DNA from: Alphaproteobacteria bacterium
Lineage (GTDB): Bacteria > Pseudomonadota > Alphaproteobacteria > JAQWUY01
Direction of reading: 5' to 3'
DNA length: 64,000 bases
Assembly (NCBI GenBank): GCA_965276005.1
Contig: OZ254962.1
Location: 2,676,991-2,740,990 of the forward strand
Shown: piece after piece, positions 31,406-37,434 of the stretch
Layout of the letters: every line of letters begins with the position of its first letter
How positions within the stretch are numbered: position 1 is the stretch's first letter
Program-made: the position numbers and the translations under genes
The notes under the pieces: generated by a model
Databases searched by the model: none
Seen by the model: only the letters and a program-made list of their open reading frames with translations
Told to the model about the DNA's origin: nothing

Positions 31406-32674
31406 ATGCAAATAAACAATCGCACTATATTTAACAAGGACAACTTGGATATATTACAGGGTATAGATTCGGATACCATAGACCTTATATACCTTGACCC
31501 CCCGTTTAATAAGAAAAAACAGTTTATCGCCTCGATAGGCAGTAGTGCGGAGGGGGCGTCTTTTAATGACTTGTATCAATTACAAGATATTAAAGACGCA
31601 TGGGGTATATCCATAGAACAGGACACCCCGAAAGTACATGACTTTTTAATCGGCATAAAGAAAATAGACGGTAAACAATCGTATAACTATTGTTATATAG
31701 CCTATATGGCTATTCGTTTGATAGAGTGCCACCGCATATTAAAAAACACAGGCAGTTTGTATTTACATTGCGATCCGACAATGAGCCACTATTTAAAAAT
31801 ACTCTTAGACTGTATATTCGGGGATAACAATTTTATAAATGAAATTGTGTGGTGTTACCAAACGGGCGGTGCTGGGAAGCGATCATTTGCCAGAAAACAC
31901 GATATACTATTGTTTTACGGCAAATCAGAAAATTATGTTTTTCATGCGGACGCCGTACACATACCCCGTACCGATAAAGCTTTACAAAGGGCAAAAAATC
32001 CCAAAGGGGCAAGAATAAACTACACAGACACTACGAAAACAGCCAATGATTTTTTTGTCGATATACAGGCGTTAAACCCTATGGCAAAGGAACGCACAGG
32101 CTACCCGACCCAAAAGCCTTTACACCTCTTACGGCGGATTATCACAGCGTCCAGCAATGAGGGCGATATTGTCCTAGATCCATTTTGTGGCTGTGCGACC
32201 ACTTGTATTGCAGCGGAACAACTAAACCGTAAATGGATTGGTATCGACATATCTGTAAAAGCATATGACCTTGTGTGCGAGCGATTGGCAAAAGAAGTAT
32301 CAGACACCGGCGATATATTAAAATACAAAAATAAAGTGTATTTTCAAACGACCGTCCCCGCCCGTACAGATATGGGGGCGGATACCCCAGTACAAAAATG
32401 CGTATACATTATATCCAACCCAGCCTATCCAAACGATTACAAAGTAGGGGTTGCCAAGAATGTACATGCCCGATTAAACAGCTACCAAACCAGCGACCCC
32501 GATAGGGGCTACACATTGGAATACAGCCTATTAACCCCCTATTTTACCGAACTAGAAAAATATATACACGACATTTTACCCAATAAATATGAATGGATAC
32601 AGAATACAGATTTAGCAACCATAAAACAAAAAATAGACGATTTTATAGCTAGTAAAACACGGAGGCGTATGTGA
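31406..32674 (+). CDS. Beta-class amino-DNA methyltransferase fused to a T5orf172/GIY-YIG-like domain, copy 1
   Basis: YLDPPF (motif IV), variable segment, YPTQKP, LDPFCGCATT (motif I), then VYIISN..YKVG..ARL..ELEKYIH..YEWI. Confidence 0.88.
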   Translation: MQINNRTIFNKDNLDILQGIDSDTIDLIYLDPPFNKKKQFIASIGSSAEGASFNDLYQLQDIKDAWGISIEQDTPKVHDFLIGIKKIDGKQSYNYCYIAYMAIRLIECHRILKNTGSLYLHCDPTMSHYLKILLDCIFGDNNFINEIVWCYQTGGAGKRSFARKHDILLFYGKSENYVFHADAVHIPRTDKALQRAKNPKGARINYTDTTKTANDFFVDIQALNPMAKERTGYPTQKPLHLLRRIITASSNEGDIVLDPFCGCATTCIAAEQLNRKWIGIDISVKAYDLVCERLAKEVSDTGDILKYKNKVYFQTTVPARTDMGADTPVQKCVYIISNPAYPNDYKVGVAKNVHARLNSYQTSDPDRGYTLEYSLLTPYFTELEKYIHDILPNKYEWIQNTDLATIKQKIDDFIASKTRRRM

Positions 32675-32723
32675 TTAAGCCCCATGTGCAACGGATGCAT
32701 ACGCCATAAGGGACAATACGCTA

Positions 32724-32752
32724 TTGTATTTGTAGAGATAATGTACTACACT
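32724..32752 (+). promoter_or_regulatory. Putative sigma70 promoter of MTase copy 2
   Basis: TTGTAT-N17-TACACT within the duplicated 110-bp spacer. Confidence 0.5.
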
Positions 32753-32784
32753 ATGCTTTTATAACGCCATATGGATGTAACCCC

Positions 32785-34179
32785 ATGCAAATAAATAATC
32801 GCACTATATTTAACAAAGACAACTTGGATATATTACAAGGTATAGATTCGGATACTATAGACCTTATATACCTTGACCCCCCGTTTAACAAGAAAAAACA
32901 GTTTATCGCCCCGATGGGTAGTAGTGCGGAGGGGGCGTCTTTTAACGATTTGTATCGATTGCAAGATATTAAAGACGAATGGGTTATATCCATAGAACAG
33001 GACACTCCGAAATTACACGATTTTTTAATTGGCATAAAGAAAATAGATGGCAAGCAATCGTATAACTATTGTTATATAGCCTATATGGCTATTCGTTTGA
33101 TAGAATGCCACCGCATATTAAAACCAACGGGCAGCTTATATCTGCATTGTGACCCGACAATGAGCCACTATCTGAAAATACTCTTGGACTGTATATTTTG
33201 GGATAAAAACTTTGTAAATGAGATCGTGTGGCATTACAGAACATATCAAGGCAAGGTTTCAACATATTACCCTAAAAAACACGATATTATCTTTTGGTAT
33301 ACAAAAGATTCAAAATTATTTGAAAACAGACAAGTATTTAAACTTGCATATATGGATAATTATGAATATACAGTTGATTTTATGAGATGGAAAAAATTTT
33401 TTGCTATAGGAGATAATAAAATCAAATATGGAAATCATCCAGAAAGAGATAGTCGTTTTACCCAATACCTAGATAGGTGGATACATGATAAGGGAAGAAA
33501 ACCAACGATAGGGGAGATTGTTTATGAGTGTAAGGGATATGTTGTGGATGATGTGTGGGTAGATATTCAGGCAATAGATCCGAAAGACTCAAAAGAAAAA
33601 ACGGGCTACCCGACCCAAAAGCCCTTAGAGTTATTGCGGCGGATTATCACAGCGTCCAGCAATGAAGGTGATATTGTCCTAGATCCATTTTGTGGCTGTG
33701 CGACCACTTGTATTGCAGCGGAACAACTAAACCGTAAATGGATTGGTATCGACATATCTGTAAAAGCATATGACCTTGTGCGCGAGCGATTGGCAAAAGA
33801 AGTATCAGACACCGGCGATATATTAAAATACAAAAATAAAGTGTATTTTCAAACGACCGTCCCCGCCCGTACAGATATGGGGGCGGATACCCCAGTACAA
33901 AAATCCGTATACATTATATCCAACCCATCCTATCCAAACGATTACAAAGTAGGGGTTGCCAAGAATGTACATGCCCGATTAAACAGCTACCAAACCAGCG
34001 ACCCCGATAGGGGCTACAAACTGGAATACAGCGTATTAACCCCCTATTTTACCGAACTAGAAAAATATATACACGACATTTTACCCAATAAATATGAATG
34101 GATACAGAATACAGATTTAGCAACCATAAAACAAAAAATGGACGATTTTATAGCTAGTAAAACACGGAGGCGTATGTGA
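32785..34179 (+). CDS. Beta-class amino-DNA methyltransferase fused to a T5orf172/GIY-YIG-like domain, copy 2
   Basis: Same motifs as copy 1; unrelated AT-rich central segment of ~405 bp. Confidence 0.88.
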   Translation: MQINNRTIFNKDNLDILQGIDSDTIDLIYLDPPFNKKKQFIAPMGSSAEGASFNDLYRLQDIKDEWVISIEQDTPKLHDFLIGIKKIDGKQSYNYCYIAYMAIRLIECHRILKPTGSLYLHCDPTMSHYLKILLDCIFWDKNFVNEIVWHYRTYQGKVSTYYPKKHDIIFWYTKDSKLFENRQVFKLAYMDNYEYTVDFMRWKKFFAIGDNKIKYGNHPERDSRFTQYLDRWIHDKGRKPTIGEIVYECKGYVVDDVWVDIQAIDPKDSKEKTGYPTQKPLELLRRIITASSNEGDIVLDPFCGCATTCIAAEQLNRKWIGIDISVKAYDLVRERLAKEVSDTGDILKYKNKVYFQTTVPARTDMGADTPVQKSVYIISNPSYPNDYKVGVAKNVHARLNSYQTSDPDRGYKLEYSVLTPYFTELEKYIHDILPNKYEWIQNTDLATIKQKMDDFIASKTRRRM

Positions 34180-34228
34180 TTAAGCCCCATGTGCAACGGA
34201 TGCATACGCCATAAGGGACAATACGCTA

Positions 34229-34257
34229 TTGTATTCGTAAAGATAATGTACTACACT
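34229..34257 (+). promoter_or_regulatory. Putative sigma70 promoter of MTase copy 3
   Basis: TTGTAT-N17-TACACT, with both hexamers conserved between the two spacer copies. Confidence 0.5.
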
Positions 34258-34289
34258 ATGCTTTTATAACGCCATATGGATGTAACCCC

Positions 34290-35666
34290 ATGCAAATAAA
34301 TAATCGCACTATATTTAACAAAGACAACTTGGATATATTACAAGGTATAGATTCGGATACTATAGACCTTATATACCTTGACCCCCCGTTTAACAAGAAA
34401 AAACAGTTTATCGCCCCGATGGGTAGTAGTGCGGAGGGGGCGTCTTTTAACGATTTGTATCGATTGCAAGATATTAAAGACGAATGGGTTATATCCATAG
34501 AACAGGACACTCCGAAATTACATGACTTTTTAATTGGCATAAAGAAAATAGATGGCAAGCAATCGTATAACTATTGTTATATAGCCTATATGGCTATTCG
34601 TTTGATAGAATGTCACCGTATATTAAAACCAACGGGTAGCTTATATCTGCATTGTGACCCGACAATGAGTCATTACTTAAAAATCGCTCTTGATTGTATA
34701 TTCGGGGATAAGAATTTCATAAACGAGATTGCTTGGTGTTATAAAAAATTGCCGAATAACGCAAAAATGTTTCAGAGAAATAAAGATATTATTTTATTTT
34801 ATGCGAAATCTGAAAACTATATTTTTCATAAACAATATTCTCATCCTACTAAACAATCTTTAAAAACTTTTGAGACTGGGCGTAGGATAGGATATAATGC
34901 CAATCACTCTAAGAAAATGGTGACTGTTTTTGATTGGGATAAATATCAACAAGCAATAAAAAATAATAAAATCCCCAAAGATTTAAAACCTATAGAATTT
35001 AAAGATGGCAAACCTCTGATGCGAGATTATTGGGATGATATAAAAATACTTGGTGGAAGTAAGAACAAAGAACGCACAGGCTACCCGACCCAAAAGCCCT
35101 TAGAGTTATTGCGGCGGATTATCGCAGCGTCCAGCAATGAGGGCGATATTGTCCTAGATCCATTTTGTGGCTGTGCGACTACTTGTATTGCAGCGGAACA
35201 ACTAAATCGTAAATGGATTGGTATCGACATATCTGTAAAAGCATATGACCTTGTGCGCGAGCGATTGGCAAAAGAAGTATCAGACACCGGCGATATATTA
35301 AAATACAAAAATAAAGTGTATTTTCAAACGACCGTCCCCGCCCGTACAGATATGGGGGCGGATACCCCAATACAAAAATGCGTATACATTATATCCAACC
35401 CATCCTATCCAAACGATTACAAAGTAGGGGTTGCCAAGAATGTACATGCCCGGTTAAACAGCTATCAAACCAGCGACCCCGATAGGGGCTACAAACTAGA
35501 ATACAGTGTCTTAACCCCCTATTTTACCGAATTAGAAAAACACATACACGATATTTTACCCAACAAATACGAATGGATACAGAATACTGATTTAGCAACC
35601 ATAAAACAAAAAATAGACGATTTTATAGCCAATAAAACACGAGATTTATTTAGCCAAGCCCTGTGA
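34290..35666 (+). CDS. Beta-class amino-DNA methyltransferase fused to a T5orf172/GIY-YIG-like domain, copy 3
   Basis: Same motifs; a third distinct central segment of ~375 bp; altered last residues (NKTRDLFSQAL). Confidence 0.88.
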   Translation: MQINNRTIFNKDNLDILQGIDSDTIDLIYLDPPFNKKKQFIAPMGSSAEGASFNDLYRLQDIKDEWVISIEQDTPKLHDFLIGIKKIDGKQSYNYCYIAYMAIRLIECHRILKPTGSLYLHCDPTMSHYLKIALDCIFGDKNFINEIAWCYKKLPNNAKMFQRNKDIILFYAKSENYIFHKQYSHPTKQSLKTFETGRRIGYNANHSKKMVTVFDWDKYQQAIKNNKIPKDLKPIEFKDGKPLMRDYWDDIKILGGSKNKERTGYPTQKPLELLRRIIAASSNEGDIVLDPFCGCATTCIAAEQLNRKWIGIDISVKAYDLVRERLAKEVSDTGDILKYKNKVYFQTTVPARTDMGADTPIQKCVYIISNPSYPNDYKVGVAKNVHARLNSYQTSDPDRGYKLEYSVLTPYFTELEKHIHDILPNKYEWIQNTDLATIKQKIDDFIANKTRDLFSQAL

Positions 35667-35825
35667 TGTTCTCCAATACTCGCAAGCAAAGATATTGTTA
35701 TCTCCAGTGTCTTAAACCACAGCAAAAAGGAAATACAGGGTATTACAGCTATATATAATCGCAACGATCATTTAAATGCAATATTAGAATCACCTACATT
35801 ATGTATTAAATCTTGTTTAGGATAG
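35667..35825 (+). pseudogene. Remnant of a tyrosine-recombinase (integrase) C-terminus
   Basis: In the frame following the copy-3 stop: LASKDIVISSVLNHSKKEIQGITAIYNRNDHL, resembling the ..vLnH....gv.avYnr.dy catalytic His/Tyr region; no start codon. Confidence 0.55.
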
Positions 35826-36012
35826 TAAACGCTGCGAGTCATAATAGATCACAAACAAACATTTAGCATGCGAAAAATACCGTAAAGCCATATGGATTTT
35901 ACGGTGTATGGTAACCACTCCTTGACGCATGGCATTTGTGGGGTTTTTAGGGTGGTCTGCCCCGATTTCGTATTTCTCGTATTATAGGTACCTCCCGATA
36001 AAAACCGCAAAC

Positions 36013-36271
36013 AAAAAAGAGCCTCCTTGCGGAGGCTCTGAGTTTTGGAAGTATTTAAGTAGTCATATCTAATATTCATGTAGATACATAAACATTACAT
36101 ATAGCATTGGGAAAGAATCATAATATATTCAATCTCAAACACTTGTGATTGTAATATACCAAAATTTTTTATCTAATGGGTGTAAATTTCGCAAGTTTAT
36201 ACATTTTTTTACACATATACTATAATTTTGGTATTTCACGCTGATAAAAAATTCGATAATACCATTAACGA
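36013..36271 (-). ncRNA. Candidate sRNA unit A of a triplicated non-coding repeat
   Basis: Minus-strand terminator AGAGCCTCC-GCAA-GGAGGCTCT plus a U-run; ~60-nt core nearly invariant among the three copies. Confidence 0.5.
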
Positions 36272-36487
36272 AGTGTCTTTTTGTTGTGTGTAGTATCGCT
36301 GGTTTTTGGCGAAAACGGAAAAAATCTGCCCCTGTGGCGTTTTGTAATACTATATGTGGGTGCTATATTTGCTTGTTTTTACCCGTTTTTTGTATGCGTT
36401 GCTTGCCTGTGCTGCCGACGGTATATTTTTTGGTATATATTATACGCATACGGTTTATAAAAATACAACATTCGATAAAAATTGTAG

Positions 36488-36748
36488 AAAAAAAGAAGCC
36501 CCCTTGCGAAGGCTTTAAGTTTTGGAAGTATCTAAGTAATCATATCTAATATTCATGTGTATACATAAATATTACATACTACATTAGGAAAGAATATGTA
36601 TATACGCAATCCCAACGGCTTACAGTTGCAATATAGTAAATTTTTTTTACCCAATGGGTGTAAATTTCGCAAGTGTGTACATTTTTTACATGTACACTCT
36701 GTTTTAGTATTTCACGCTGATAAAAAATTCAAGAATACCATTCACGAA
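36488..36748 (-). ncRNA. Candidate sRNA unit B
   Basis: Terminator AAGCCTTC-GCAA-GGGGGCTT, whose two substitutions pair as G-U only on the minus strand. Confidence 0.5.
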
Positions 36749-36940
36749 GTATTTTCTTGTGTGAAATATTGCTGATTTTTCGTGAGTCGCCCCTGTGGCA
36801 CTTTGCAATGCTGTATATTGGTGTTGTATTTGCCCGTTTTTTGTATGCGTCATTTGCCCATACTGCTGATGGCATATTTTTTGGTGTGCCGTGTGTATAT
36901 ATACGGTTTATAAAAATGCAACACTCGGAGAAAATTGCAG

Positions 36941-37203
36941 AAAAAAAGAAGCCTCCTTGCGGAGGCTTGAAGTTTGGAAGTATCTAAGTAGTCATATCTA
37001 ATATTCATGTGTATACATAAACATTACATACTACATTAGGAAAGAAGATGTATGTATTCAATCCTAACGGCTTGCGGTTGTAATATACTAAATTTTTTTA
37101 TGTAATTGATGTAAACTTCGTAAGTGTATACATTTTTTACATGTATATTTTATGTTAGTATTTCACGCTGTTAAAAAAATTTGAAAATACCGTTCACGAA
37201 GTG
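36941..37203 (-). ncRNA. Candidate sRNA unit C
   Basis: Terminator AAGCCTCC-GCAA-GGAGGCTT plus a U7 run; same conserved core. Confidence 0.5.
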
Positions 37204-37392
37204 GATTTTCGGCTATTTTTGTTCACACTTCGTGAATGACATACGATTTTTTTGAAAAAAACATGTAGTGATATTGTATTATATTGTTAAAGTGCGAACA
37301 GAAATGTAAGTGTGATAACAGCAATATCTCATTGTTTTTTTGGATATGGCTTTTTTATTTGTGTTCTATTTCAGGGCGGAAACACACATTCT

Positions 37393-37434
37393 GTTTATCC
37401 CAATTCCCCTGCCGTTTACCCCAATTCCCCCGCC
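37393..37434. repeat. 21-bp tandem duplication of the lysS 3' end
   Basis: GTTTATCCCAATTCCCCTGCC / GTTTACCCCAATTCCCCCGCC. Confidence 0.8.

What the first reader, a model, noticed from the sequence alone, without database searches (positions are those of the whole stretch)
31406..35666. Tandem array of three MTase-GIY-YIG(T5orf172) fusion genes with swappable target-recognition cassettes
Seen: three head-to-tail genes with near-identical N-terminal (DPPF) and C-terminal (YPTQKP, FxGxG) regions. Their central segments are unrelated, with lengths of 279, 405 and 375 bp (about 31820-32098, 33199-33603, 34704-35078), all in frame; those of copies 2 and 3 are strongly AT-rich. The right junction is sharp at GGCTACCCGACCCAAAAGCC. 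Copy 3 is mosaic there: it matches copy 1 on the left (GAACGCACA) and copy 2 on the right (CCCTTAGAGTTATTG). Copies 2 and 3 each carry their own promoter-like TTGTAT-N17-TACACT. Established: in beta-class amino-MTases the TRD lies between motif IV and motif I, and TRD exchange by recombination at conserved flanks is known for Type III mod genes. Every copy ends in a ~90-aa domain with the T5orf172/MUG113 pattern (VY..KVG..R..E..H..EW). No separate REase gene is adjacent. Inference: a single-chain modification/nuclease system, or an epigenetic regulator set, whose specificity repertoire is diversified by TRD capture and gene conversion.
Basis: partly seen in the sequence, partly recalled or inferred. 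Interest (0 to 1): 0.88.

Follow-up and report, generated by a model that had tools for sequence, protein, structure and literature searches.

The report
Tandem methylase-nuclease genes with swapped recognition cassettes
Three neighbouring genes each fuse a DNA adenine-type methylase to a small nuclease domain and differ only in the segment that reads DNA; they belong to a large, apparently unstudied family from sponge-associated bacteria that most likely works as one-protein restriction-modification enzymes.

Summary
Three intact head-to-tail genes (31406-32674, 32785-34179, 34290-35666) each encode a beta-class N6/N4 DNA methyltransferase fused to a C-terminal T5orf172 (GIY-YIG-superfamily) domain. 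Their arms are 93-97% identical as protein. Their central recognition segments (TRDs) are unrelated.

An independent 2018 metagenome holds a ~92%-identical copy of the whole lysA-array-lysK locus, with all three TRDs and the tandem joint. The array is therefore neither an artefact nor recent.

TRDs are inherited vertically, whereas paralogous arms are closer within a genome than to their orthologues. That shows gene conversion confined to the arms.

The family is large and found almost only in sponge-symbiont MAGs of more than 10 phyla. It forms similar arrays of up to at least 9 genes.

It is modular at two junctions. The same TRD types occur on diverged scaffolds. The tail after a conserved PxRTD linker is T5orf172, HNH or Mrr-type.

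Some members sit inside IS1595-type transposons.

Best reading (inferred, untested): an array of three one-protein restriction-modification enzymes with different specificities. The "own promoter" claim is not supported, and motif I reads FCGCA, not FxGxG.

The parts
31406..32674 (+). Gene 1: beta-class DNA methyltransferase fused to T5orf172, 422 aa
   Evidence: ORF. Pfam N6_N4_Mtase residues 25-289, E 3.8e-48; T5orf172 residues 332-396, 36.1 bits. AlphaFold2 pLDDT 87, pTM 0.85. Best PDB folds are CcrM, M.BceJIV and M.RsrI.
31820..32098 (+). TRD cassette 1 (variable segment, 279 bp, GC 40.9%)
   Evidence: Unrelated to the other two copies. 60-65% identical to TRDs on T5orf172-, HNH- and Mrr-tailed scaffolds elsewhere. 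Aligns through to M.BceJIV/M.RsrI/MboIIA. The orthologue in sample X5 differs by 4.7-8.7%.
32399..32593 (+). T5orf172 (GIY-YIG-superfamily) domain of gene 1
   Evidence: Pfam. Y334, K346, G348, E384, H388, E396 and W397 are invariant and R356, Y360 nearly so over 107 relatives. The tail model has a beta-beta-alpha-beta-alpha-alpha fold, and its best PDB hits are Slx1, BH0048 and HIGLE, all GIY-YIG proteins, with weak E-values.
32099..33198 (+). Repeat R1: C-arm of gene 1 + 110-bp spacer (32675-32784) + N-arm of gene 2
   Evidence: About 98% identical to R2 over its core; the differences cluster at the TRD borders.
32785..34179 (+). Gene 2: methyltransferase-T5orf172 fusion, 464 aa
   Evidence: ORF. 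Pfam N6_N4_Mtase E 2.1e-46; T5orf172 residues 375-438 (nt 33907-34098), 35.9 bits.
33199..33603 (+). TRD cassette 2 (405 bp, GC 31.6%, GC3 25.9%)
   Evidence: 56-61% identical to the TRDs of P0004/P0005/P0011/P0013 (T5orf172 tails) and P0034 (HNH tail). The X5 orthologue differs by 4.5%.
33604..34703 (+). Repeat R2: C-arm of gene 2 + spacer (34180-34289) + N-arm of gene 3
   Evidence: The X5 contig of 1042 nt spans this joint into TRD3.
34290..35666 (+). Gene 3: methyltransferase-T5orf172 fusion, 458 aa, with its own C-terminal ending (NKTRDLFSQAL)
   Evidence: ORF. Pfam N6_N4_Mtase E 2.6e-48; T5orf172 residues 364-428 (nt 35379-35573), 37.5 bits.
34704..35078 (+). TRD cassette 3 (375 bp, GC 29.6%, GC3 24.8%)
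   Evidence: 86-87% aa and 83-88% nt identical to the TRD of P0019/L002 in a different alphaproteobacterial MAG, whose arms are 55-83% nt identical. The same TRD type occurs with HNH tails, Mrr_cat tails and no tail. The X5 orthologue differs by 7.9%.

Best explanation
The locus is a chromosomal tandem array of three paralogous one-polypeptide enzymes.

Each enzyme joins three parts:
- a beta-class amino-methyltransferase; the DPPF motif points to N6-adenine;
- an exchangeable target-recognition cassette;
- a C-terminal T5orf172 (GIY-YIG-type) nuclease module, attached through a conserved PxRTD linker.

Most likely each protein is a self-contained restriction-modification enzyme. Its TRD selects one DNA motif, the methylase marks that motif in the host genome, and the tethered nuclease cuts DNA that carries the motif unmarked. 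Beta-class methylases usually act as dimers, which would bring two nuclease domains together. The array would then give three specificities from one locus.

Shown here:
- the architecture and the intact catalytic-type residues;
- TRD and tail modularity across the family;
- inheritance of the array from an ancestor shared with a ~92%-identical relative;
- homogenisation of the arms, but not the TRDs, by gene conversion;
- carriage of some family members as passengers of IS1595-type transposons.

Inferred: methylation of three different motifs, nuclease activity, and defence.
For: Architecture and residues:
- Domains and motifs.
- The fold resembles dimeric beta-class m6A methylases.
- The tail has a GIY-YIG-like fold, with Tyr, Lys/Gly, Arg, Tyr and Glu conserved.
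- T5orf172 nuclease activity that depends on the conserved Glu has been shown for ICP1 Gp88/Odn (PMC8263062, PMC10448857).

The tail position holds nucleases of unrelated folds:
- 65 of 67 more distant members carry HNH with conserved catalytic residues.
- Others carry Mrr_cat.
- Homology between a T5orf172-tailed and an HNH-tailed protein stops exactly after PxRTD.

No conserved partner gene lies within 4 kb across 80 loci; the only recurring neighbour is an IS1595 transposase.

Selection and stability:
- Synonymous changes outnumber non-synonymous ones in the N-arms: 26:7, 30:8 and 13:1.
- The array and all three TRDs are retained in an independent relative.

The same array design (arms 89-99% identical, TRDs about 30%) recurs in Spirochaetia, Flammeovirgaceae, Bacteroidia and others.
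- On an arms tree every array is one clade: 8 label changes, the minimum, against 26.8 after shuffling.
- On a TRD tree the label is as good as random: 25 changes against 26.7.
Against: - No activity of any member is known to me, or was found in four literature searches.
- The Foldseek support for a GIY-YIG fold is weak (best E 0.25, probability 0.87).
- The Arg at the catalytic position is replaced in 2 of 29 aligned tails.
- All well-studied combined R-M enzymes have a different build: N-terminal PD-(D/E)XK plus a gamma-class methylase (PMC4081073).
- Forms of the same TRD types with the methylase alone also exist.
- The neighbours are housekeeping genes, not a defence island.
- No expression data were found.
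Confidence: 0.55

Rival explanations
1. Selfish or homing-type element. The nuclease tail mainly serves the gene's own spread or maintenance, for example by cutting unmarked or empty alleles, by post-segregational killing that stabilises the gene or its IS1595 carrier, or by making breaks that drive gene conversion between array members. The methylase shields the carrier genome. Defence would be a by-product. This overlaps with the main reading rather than excluding it.
For: - T5orf172, HNH and GIY-YIG modules are typical of homing endonucleases (PMC10448857).
- Members sit inside IS1595-type transposons with terminal inverted repeats in at least five loci from different phyla.
- The genes are inserted among housekeeping genes with foreign base composition.
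- The arms undergo repeated gene conversion.
- The family is spread over more than 10 phyla that share one habitat.
Against: - The array has stayed at the same site with the same three TRDs over about 7-8% divergence.
- No transposase or IS1595-type inverted repeat lies in or beside this array.
- A DDE transposase already explains mobility where it is present.
Confidence: 0.2
2. Solitary methyltransferases without restriction. The three enzymes only methylate, for gene regulation or to protect DNA against restriction enzymes of neighbouring microbes or phages. The tail would be a DNA-binding or regulatory module that no longer cuts, comparable to the non-catalytic C-terminal domain that CcrM needs for DNA binding.
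For: - CcrM and M.BceJIV, the best fold matches, are solitary methylases.
- Methylase-only relatives with the same TRD types exist.
- No Res or REase partner is present.
- T5orf172 was first described as a DNA-binding-type domain (my own knowledge).
Against: - Catalytic-type residues of the tail are conserved over 107 sequences.
- The same position is filled by HNH (conserved DH...N...N and Cys4) or by Mrr_cat. That is hard to explain unless cutting matters.
- There is no phase-variation tract.
- At least 10 paralogues in a 2.97-Mb genome is many for regulation.
Confidence: 0.15
3. Assembly artefact: the triplication or the gene order results from mis-assembly of repeats or from a mixture of strains.
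For: The arms are 1.1-kb repeats at about 98% identity, which short-read assemblies break.
Against: - All three unique TRDs are present at about single-copy depth and the arms at 2-3x in four runs.
- An independent sample from another year and study has contigs that join lysA to N-arm 1 and C-arm/spacer/N-arm to TRD3.
Confidence: 0.02

Closest known systems
Type IIC / IIG combined restriction-modification enzymes (MmeI, BpuSI, Eco57I; exception BtgZI) as defined in PMC4081073
   Same: One polypeptide carries a methyltransferase, one specificity module and one nuclease active site. No separate endonuclease gene is needed. Specificity can be changed by changing the recognition part.
   Different: Known members have an N-terminal PD-(D/E)XK nuclease and a gamma-class methylase (BtgZI: alpha-class methylase with a C-terminal PD-(D/E)XK). 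They are 900-1000 aa or longer. Here the proteins are 420-460 aa, with a beta-class methylase, a C-terminal GIY-YIG-type (elsewhere HNH or Mrr) nuclease, and tandem arrays. Activity is untested.
Type III Mod methyltransferases and domain movement of TRDs (Furuta and Kobayashi; PMC3467074, PMC3575425, PMC3983042)
   Same: Beta-class order of motifs, with the TRD between the motif IV side and motif X/I. TRD alleles move between non-orthologous genes by recombination at conserved flanks.
   Different: No Res subunit, no repeat tract for phase variation, much shorter proteins, a fused nuclease, and several alleles kept side by side as complete genes rather than as alleles at one locus.
Solitary and Type II beta-class m6A methyltransferases CcrM, M.BceJIV, M.RsrI, M.MboIIA, M1.HpyAVI
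   Same: These are the best structural and sequence matches of the methylase part. CcrM also has an extra C-terminal domain of about 80 aa.
   Different: None of them carries a nuclease-fold tail. About 20% identity.
ICP1 Gp88/Odn and T5orf172-type homing endonucleases (PMC8263062, PMC10448857)
   Same: A T5orf172 nuclease module is fused to a borrowed sequence-specific DNA-binding module, and specificity is changed by swapping that module.
   Different: There the targeting module is a replication-initiator or zinc-finger DNA-binding domain in a phage. Here it is a complete, apparently active methyltransferase in bacterial chromosomes.
IS1595-family insertion sequences with passenger genes
   Same: In relatives (L003, L036, L048, L051, L085), a DDE_Tnp_IS1595 transposase and the methylase-nuclease gene lie together between terminal inverted repeats that share the core GGGAATTAT.
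   Different: The window's array has no transposase and no such repeats. I found no published record of this passenger.

Membership tests
Beta-class N6/N4 DNA methyltransferase (Pfam N6_N4_Mtase) | Profile match above the curated cut-off | tested here: met
   159-165 bits against a cut-off of 26.7 in all three genes.
Beta-class N6/N4 DNA methyltransferase (Pfam N6_N4_Mtase) | Motif order IV (DPPF/Y) ... TRD ... X ... I, with the catalytic and AdoMet motifs intact | tested here: met
   DPPF at residues 31-34, YPTQKP, then DPFCGCATT. All are invariant over 107 relatives. Motif I is FCGCA rather than FxGxG.
Beta-class N6/N4 DNA methyltransferase (Pfam N6_N4_Mtase) | Fold like solved beta-class enzymes | tested here: met
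   Foldseek E 1e-18 to 1e-15 to CcrM, M.BceJIV, M.RsrI and MboIIA.
Beta-class N6/N4 DNA methyltransferase (Pfam N6_N4_Mtase) | Methyl transfer to a defined DNA motif | not testable with these tools
   Needs a methylome or an enzyme assay.
T5orf172 / GIY-YIG nuclease superfamily | Profile match above the curated cut-off | tested here: met
   T5orf172 scores 35.9-37.5 bits against a cut-off of 20. MUG113 falls just below its cut-off.
T5orf172 / GIY-YIG nuclease superfamily | Beta-beta-alpha-beta-alpha core fold | tested here: inconclusive
   The AlphaFold2 model (pLDDT 86) has this topology. The best PDB hits are the GIY-YIG proteins Slx1, BH0048 and HIGLE, but with E 0.25-2. A profile search of PDB sequences found nothing.
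T5orf172 / GIY-YIG nuclease superfamily | Conserved Tyr (strand 1), Arg and Tyr/His (helix 1), Glu (helix 2) | tested here: met
   Y334, R356, Y360 and E384 are present in all three genes. Y334 and E384 are invariant over 107 relatives; Y360 is invariant in the 29 aligned tails and at least 90% conserved over the 107. Arg is at least 90% conserved.
T5orf172 / GIY-YIG nuclease superfamily | Metal-dependent DNA cleavage | not testable with these tools
   Needs biochemistry.
Type IIC/IIG combined R-M enzyme | Endonuclease and methyltransferase domains in one polypeptide sharing one specificity module | tested here: met
   Met for architecture only.
Type IIC/IIG combined R-M enzyme | Usual build: N-terminal PD-(D/E)XK nuclease plus gamma-class (NPPY/F/W) methylase | tested here: not met
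   Beta-class DPPF methylase with a C-terminal GIY-YIG-type tail. Definition taken from PMC4081073.
Type IIC/IIG combined R-M enzyme | Sequence-specific cleavage of unmodified DNA, blocked by the enzyme's own methylation | not testable with these tools
   Needs an assay.
Type III R-M / phase-variable Mod (phasevarion) | Adjacent res (helicase-nuclease) gene | tested here: not met
   The flanks are lysA, non-coding repeats and lysyl-tRNA synthetase.
Type III R-M / phase-variable Mod (phasevarion) | Simple repeat tract that switches expression | tested here: not met
   No tandem repeat and no homopolymer of 8 A or T or longer in the genes.
IS1595-family transposon with passenger gene | DDE_Tnp_IS1595 transposase next to the gene, with both enclosed by terminal inverted repeats | tested here: not met
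   Not met in the window. Met in relatives L003, L036, L048, L051 and L085.
Invertible/shufflon-type specificity switch (as in Type I hsdS loci) | Inverted repeats between specificity cassettes and a site-specific recombinase | tested here: not met
   All copies are direct. There are only short chance inverted repeats and no recombinase. The supposed integrase remnant at 35667-35822 has no Pfam or phage match.

The most novel reading that the evidence does not exclude
These genes represent an unrecognised class of minimal (about 420-460 aa) one-protein restriction-modification enzymes, built from three interchangeable parts: a beta-class methylase scaffold, a TRD cassette, and a plug-in nuclease (T5orf172, HNH or Mrr). 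The class would be spread among sponge symbionts of many phyla, partly as cargo of IS1595-type transposons. It would be stacked into tandem arrays whose scaffolds are kept alike by gene conversion while the TRDs stay different, giving compact multi-specificity immune loci. A further, more speculative step is that the enzymes' own nuclease triggers the conversion, or that paralogous subunits pair to give combined specificities.
Probability: 0.4. Interest if true: 0.85.

Novelty: new variant of a known kind. Interest (0 to 1): 0.66.

Why it matters
If the proteins both mark and cut, they would be the smallest known type of combined restriction-modification enzyme, with a domain order not seen among characterised ones. 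Their natural library of exchangeable recognition cassettes and nuclease modules would be useful for enzyme discovery and engineering.

The arrays give a clean natural example of concerted evolution that stops at a functional cassette border. The sharing of one cassette pool by bacteria of more than ten phyla in sponges bears on how dense symbiont communities partition gene flow and resist the heavy phage load of a filter feeder.

The claim is directly testable with three clones and a methylome run.

Tried and rejected
Tools that were closed or returned nothing:
The rest of the window's genome could therefore not be searched. The other paralogues, IS1595 copies and any separate endonuclease remain unexamined.
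- Exact look-ups of the same-genome paralogues P0008, P0016 and P0079 found no record.
- Cluster look-up gave no names.

Searches that found nothing relevant:
- PADLOC sees only 'Type II/III MTase' and has no model for the fusion.
- NCBIfam hits are all far below their cut-offs.
- A PDB sequence search with the tail profile found nothing meaningful.
- Cultured phages and plasmids hold only the methylase part.
- None of the 80 best IMG/VR loci carries this T5orf172 tail.
- Rfam found nothing in or beside the array.
- No RNA run was found.

Ideas tested and rejected:
- The promoter idea is not supported.
- The neighbouring note's 'integrase remnant' is not supported by Pfam or tblastn.
- The downstream non-coding units are not decayed methylase copies.
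- The lysA and lysK homologues next to arrays L001 and L005 are only 31% and 23% identical to the window's, so that is coincidence and not a shared block.

Other:
- The tail-profile search of 1.84 billion representatives gave 339 hits at E 1e-10 or better, mostly C-terminal tails or fragments. It added little.

Full report
**Observation**

The region holds three intact, co-oriented ORFs: 31406-32674, 32785-34179 and 34290-35666. Their products are 83% identical overall. The identity lies in an N-terminal arm (residues 1 to about 150) and a C-terminal arm that starts at ERTGYPTQKP. The segment between the arms does not align.

At the DNA level, the word GGCTACCCGACCCAAAAGCC marks a sharp right border at 32099, 33604 and 35079. 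The left border decays gradually.

The unit "C-arm + 110-bp spacer + N-arm" occurs twice, at 32099-33198 and 33604-34703. The two copies are about 98% identical, and their differences cluster at the cassette borders. N-arm 1 is about 91% identical to N-arms 2 and 3.

Two details are not. Motif I reads FCGCA. The TTGTAT-N17-TACACT site is a 7-of-12 match that the promoter scan does not call, in a region where such sites are not above chance.

**What the genes encode**

- Pfam gives N6_N4_Mtase (E about 1e-48) and T5orf172 (36-37.5 bits against a cut-off of 20) in each protein. PADLOC recognises only a Type II/III methylase.
- An AlphaFold2 model of gene 1 is confident (pLDDT 87, pTM 0.85). Its methylase part matches the beta-class m6A enzymes CcrM, M.BceJIV, M.RsrI and MboIIA (sequence level).
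- The tail, modelled alone (pLDDT 86), has the beta-beta-alpha-beta-alpha-alpha order of GIY-YIG nucleases. Its best PDB neighbours are Slx1, BH0048 and HIGLE, all GIY-YIG proteins, though with weak statistics (best E 0.25).
- Over 107 relatives, DPPF, YPTQKP and DPFCGxA are invariant. In the tail, Y334, K346, G348, E384, H388, E396 and W397 are invariant, and R356 and Y360 are at least 90% conserved (Y360 is invariant in the 29 tails).
- T5orf172 nuclease activity that depends on the equivalent Glu has been shown for phage ICP1 Gp88/Odn (PMC8263062, PMC10448857).

**The family**

- A word-seeded search hit its ceiling of 8000 relatives. Nearly all of the best 120 have the same two-domain build.
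- Seven further paralogues (P0008, P0010, P0015, P0016, P0020, P0049, P0079) are recorded on a contig of exactly the length of the window's contig (2,965,790 bp). I infer that this genome has at least ten such genes.
- A scan of one genome per species found more than 570 relatives. The best 80 are almost all MAGs whose names mark them as sponge symbionts: Poribacteria, Poriferihabitaceae, Dehalococcoidia, Latescibacterota, Binatia, Arenicellales, Flammeovirgaceae, Spirochaetia, Acidobacteriota and others.
- Cultured phages, plasmids and the best IMG/VR loci hold only the methylase part.

**Two module junctions**

First, the TRD:
- The copy-3 TRD is 86-87% identical to that of P0019, in another alphaproteobacterial MAG whose arms are 71-77% identical. 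It is 71% identical to that of P0126, whose N-arm is 44% identical and whose tail is HNH.
- At the DNA level, the copy-3 TRD is 83-88% identical to the L002 gene, against 55-83% in the arms.
- TRD1 and TRD2 behave likewise.
- TRD2 and TRD3 have a GC3 of 25%, the arms about 42%, and lysA 52%.

Second, the tail:
- 65 of 67 more distant members carry HNH. Others carry Mrr_cat.
- The alignment of gene 2 with the HNH-tailed P0034 runs at 62% identity up to the conserved P-x-R-T-D and stops there.

Three unrelated nuclease folds at one position argue that cutting is the tail's job.

**Arrays and concerted evolution**

Tandem arrays recur:
- at least 9 genes in L001;
- 7 in L082, from a contig that carries near-identical copies of this genome's paralogues;
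- 6 in L006, 4 in L069 and 3 in L019 (both HNH type), and 3 in L005.

Within arrays the arms are 89-99% identical and the TRDs about 30%. On a tree of the arms, each of nine arrays is one clade: 8 label changes, the minimum, against 26.8 after shuffling. On a tree of the TRDs the array label is as good as random: 25 changes against 26.7.

For the window itself, an independent sample of 2018 (run X5) holds a relative of the whole locus.

| Segment | Difference between window and X5 |
|---|---|
| lysA | 7.5-8% |
| lysyl-tRNA synthetase | 6.5% |
| TRD1 | 4.7-8.7% |
| TRD2 | 4.5% |
| TRD3 | 7.9% |
| C-arm | about 9% |
| N-arm 3 | 11.8% |

Contigs in X5 join lysA to N-arm 1 and C-arm/spacer/N-arm to TRD3. 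Within the window, the inner arms differ by only 1-4%.

The three-gene array therefore predates the split of the two organisms. Its TRDs have been inherited vertically, and its arms have been homogenised by gene conversion since. At this locus the TRD set has been stable rather than in flux. Synonymous changes dominate in the N-arms (26:7, 30:8, 13:1), so the genes are under purifying selection.

**Mobility**

A survey of ORFs within 4 kb of the gene in 80 loci found no conserved partner apart from one family, an IS1595-type DDE transposase. In about ten loci from different phyla it lies directly upstream and co-oriented.

In the following loci, transposase and methylase-nuclease gene are enclosed together by terminal inverted repeats with a common core GGGAATTAT:
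- L036: 41 nt, 95% complementary;
- L051: 38 nt;
- L048: 23 nt;
- L003: 35 nt, 94%, T5orf172 type;
- L085: 26 nt, 96%.

Part of the family therefore travels as transposon cargo. The window's array has no transposase and no such repeats.

**Mechanism**

Most likely (about 0.55) each gene is a self-contained restriction-modification enzyme. One TRD serves both the methylase and the tethered nuclease, and the array gives three specificities.

Rivals:
- A mainly selfish or homing role of the nuclease (0.2). This overlaps with the main reading.
- Methylation only, with a non-cutting tail (0.15).
- Artefact (0.02).

There is no phase-variation tract, no Res partner and no recombinase. The Type III, phasevarion and shufflon models therefore fail their defining tests.

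**Comparison and novelty**

The closest known kind is the Type IIC/IIG combined enzyme (PMC4081073). Those enzymes have an N-terminal PD-(D/E)XK nuclease and a gamma-class methylase, and they are twice as long. TRD movement is known from Helicobacter (PMC3467074, PMC3983042).

I found no paper on this fusion family, its arrays or its IS1595 carriage. Earlier notes of this scan had reached the same general reading for single genes of the family. I treated them as leads. New here are the array analysis, the orthologue comparison, the tree test and the transposon link.

**Limits**

- No activity, expression or methylome data exist for any member.
- The run X5 data are short-read contigs, which may collapse repeats.
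- Organism names come only from record titles.

Noticed in passing
window 35850-37420: There are three non-coding units of about 475 bp, roughly 80% identical to each other. Each ends on the minus strand in a GC hairpin with a GCAA loop followed by a T run. The independent relative (run X5) has only two units (it skips 474 bp, 36359-36834). The units are not decayed methylase genes and have no Rfam match. Their number does not track the number of methylase genes.
   Followed up: partly
L003 8921-11729; L036 8549-11506; L051 8927-11407; L048 8995-11205; L085 4921-7721: These are compact transposons of about 2.2-3 kb. Each consists of an IS1595-type DDE transposase plus one methylase-nuclease gene (HNH or T5orf172 tail) between terminal inverted repeats that share GGGAATTAT. 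They occur in MAGs of Arenicellales, Rhodobacter, Dehalococcoidia and Halioglobus and on one IMG/VR contig.
   Followed up: partly
L020 11938-13821 (-): A 628-aa open frame combines a Type I specificity (Methylase_S) domain with an IS1595 DDE transposase domain, next to a methylase-HNH gene. It is either a transposase with a borrowed DNA-recognition domain or two genes read through in a stop-to-stop frame.
   Followed up: no
L083 3275-7933 (-) and 10001-11368 (+): P0004, one of the closest relatives of TRD2 (60% identical), lies 2 kb from a Cas12a (Cpf1)-type gene. That member therefore sits in a defence neighbourhood, unlike the window's array.
   Followed up: no
L082 6110-15121: A seven-gene array has 17-nt overlaps between successive genes, which suggests translational coupling. 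Its products are near-identical to paralogues recorded on the window's own contig. This genome therefore probably has a second, larger array elsewhere, whose arms are only about 60% identical to those in the window.
   Followed up: partly
window 35667-35822: The frame of gene 3 continues past its stop with ...VLNHSKKEIQGITAIYNRNDHL..., which another note read as an integrase C-terminal remnant. It has no Pfam hit at E up to 10 and no tblastn match in phages at E up to 1.
   Followed up: partly
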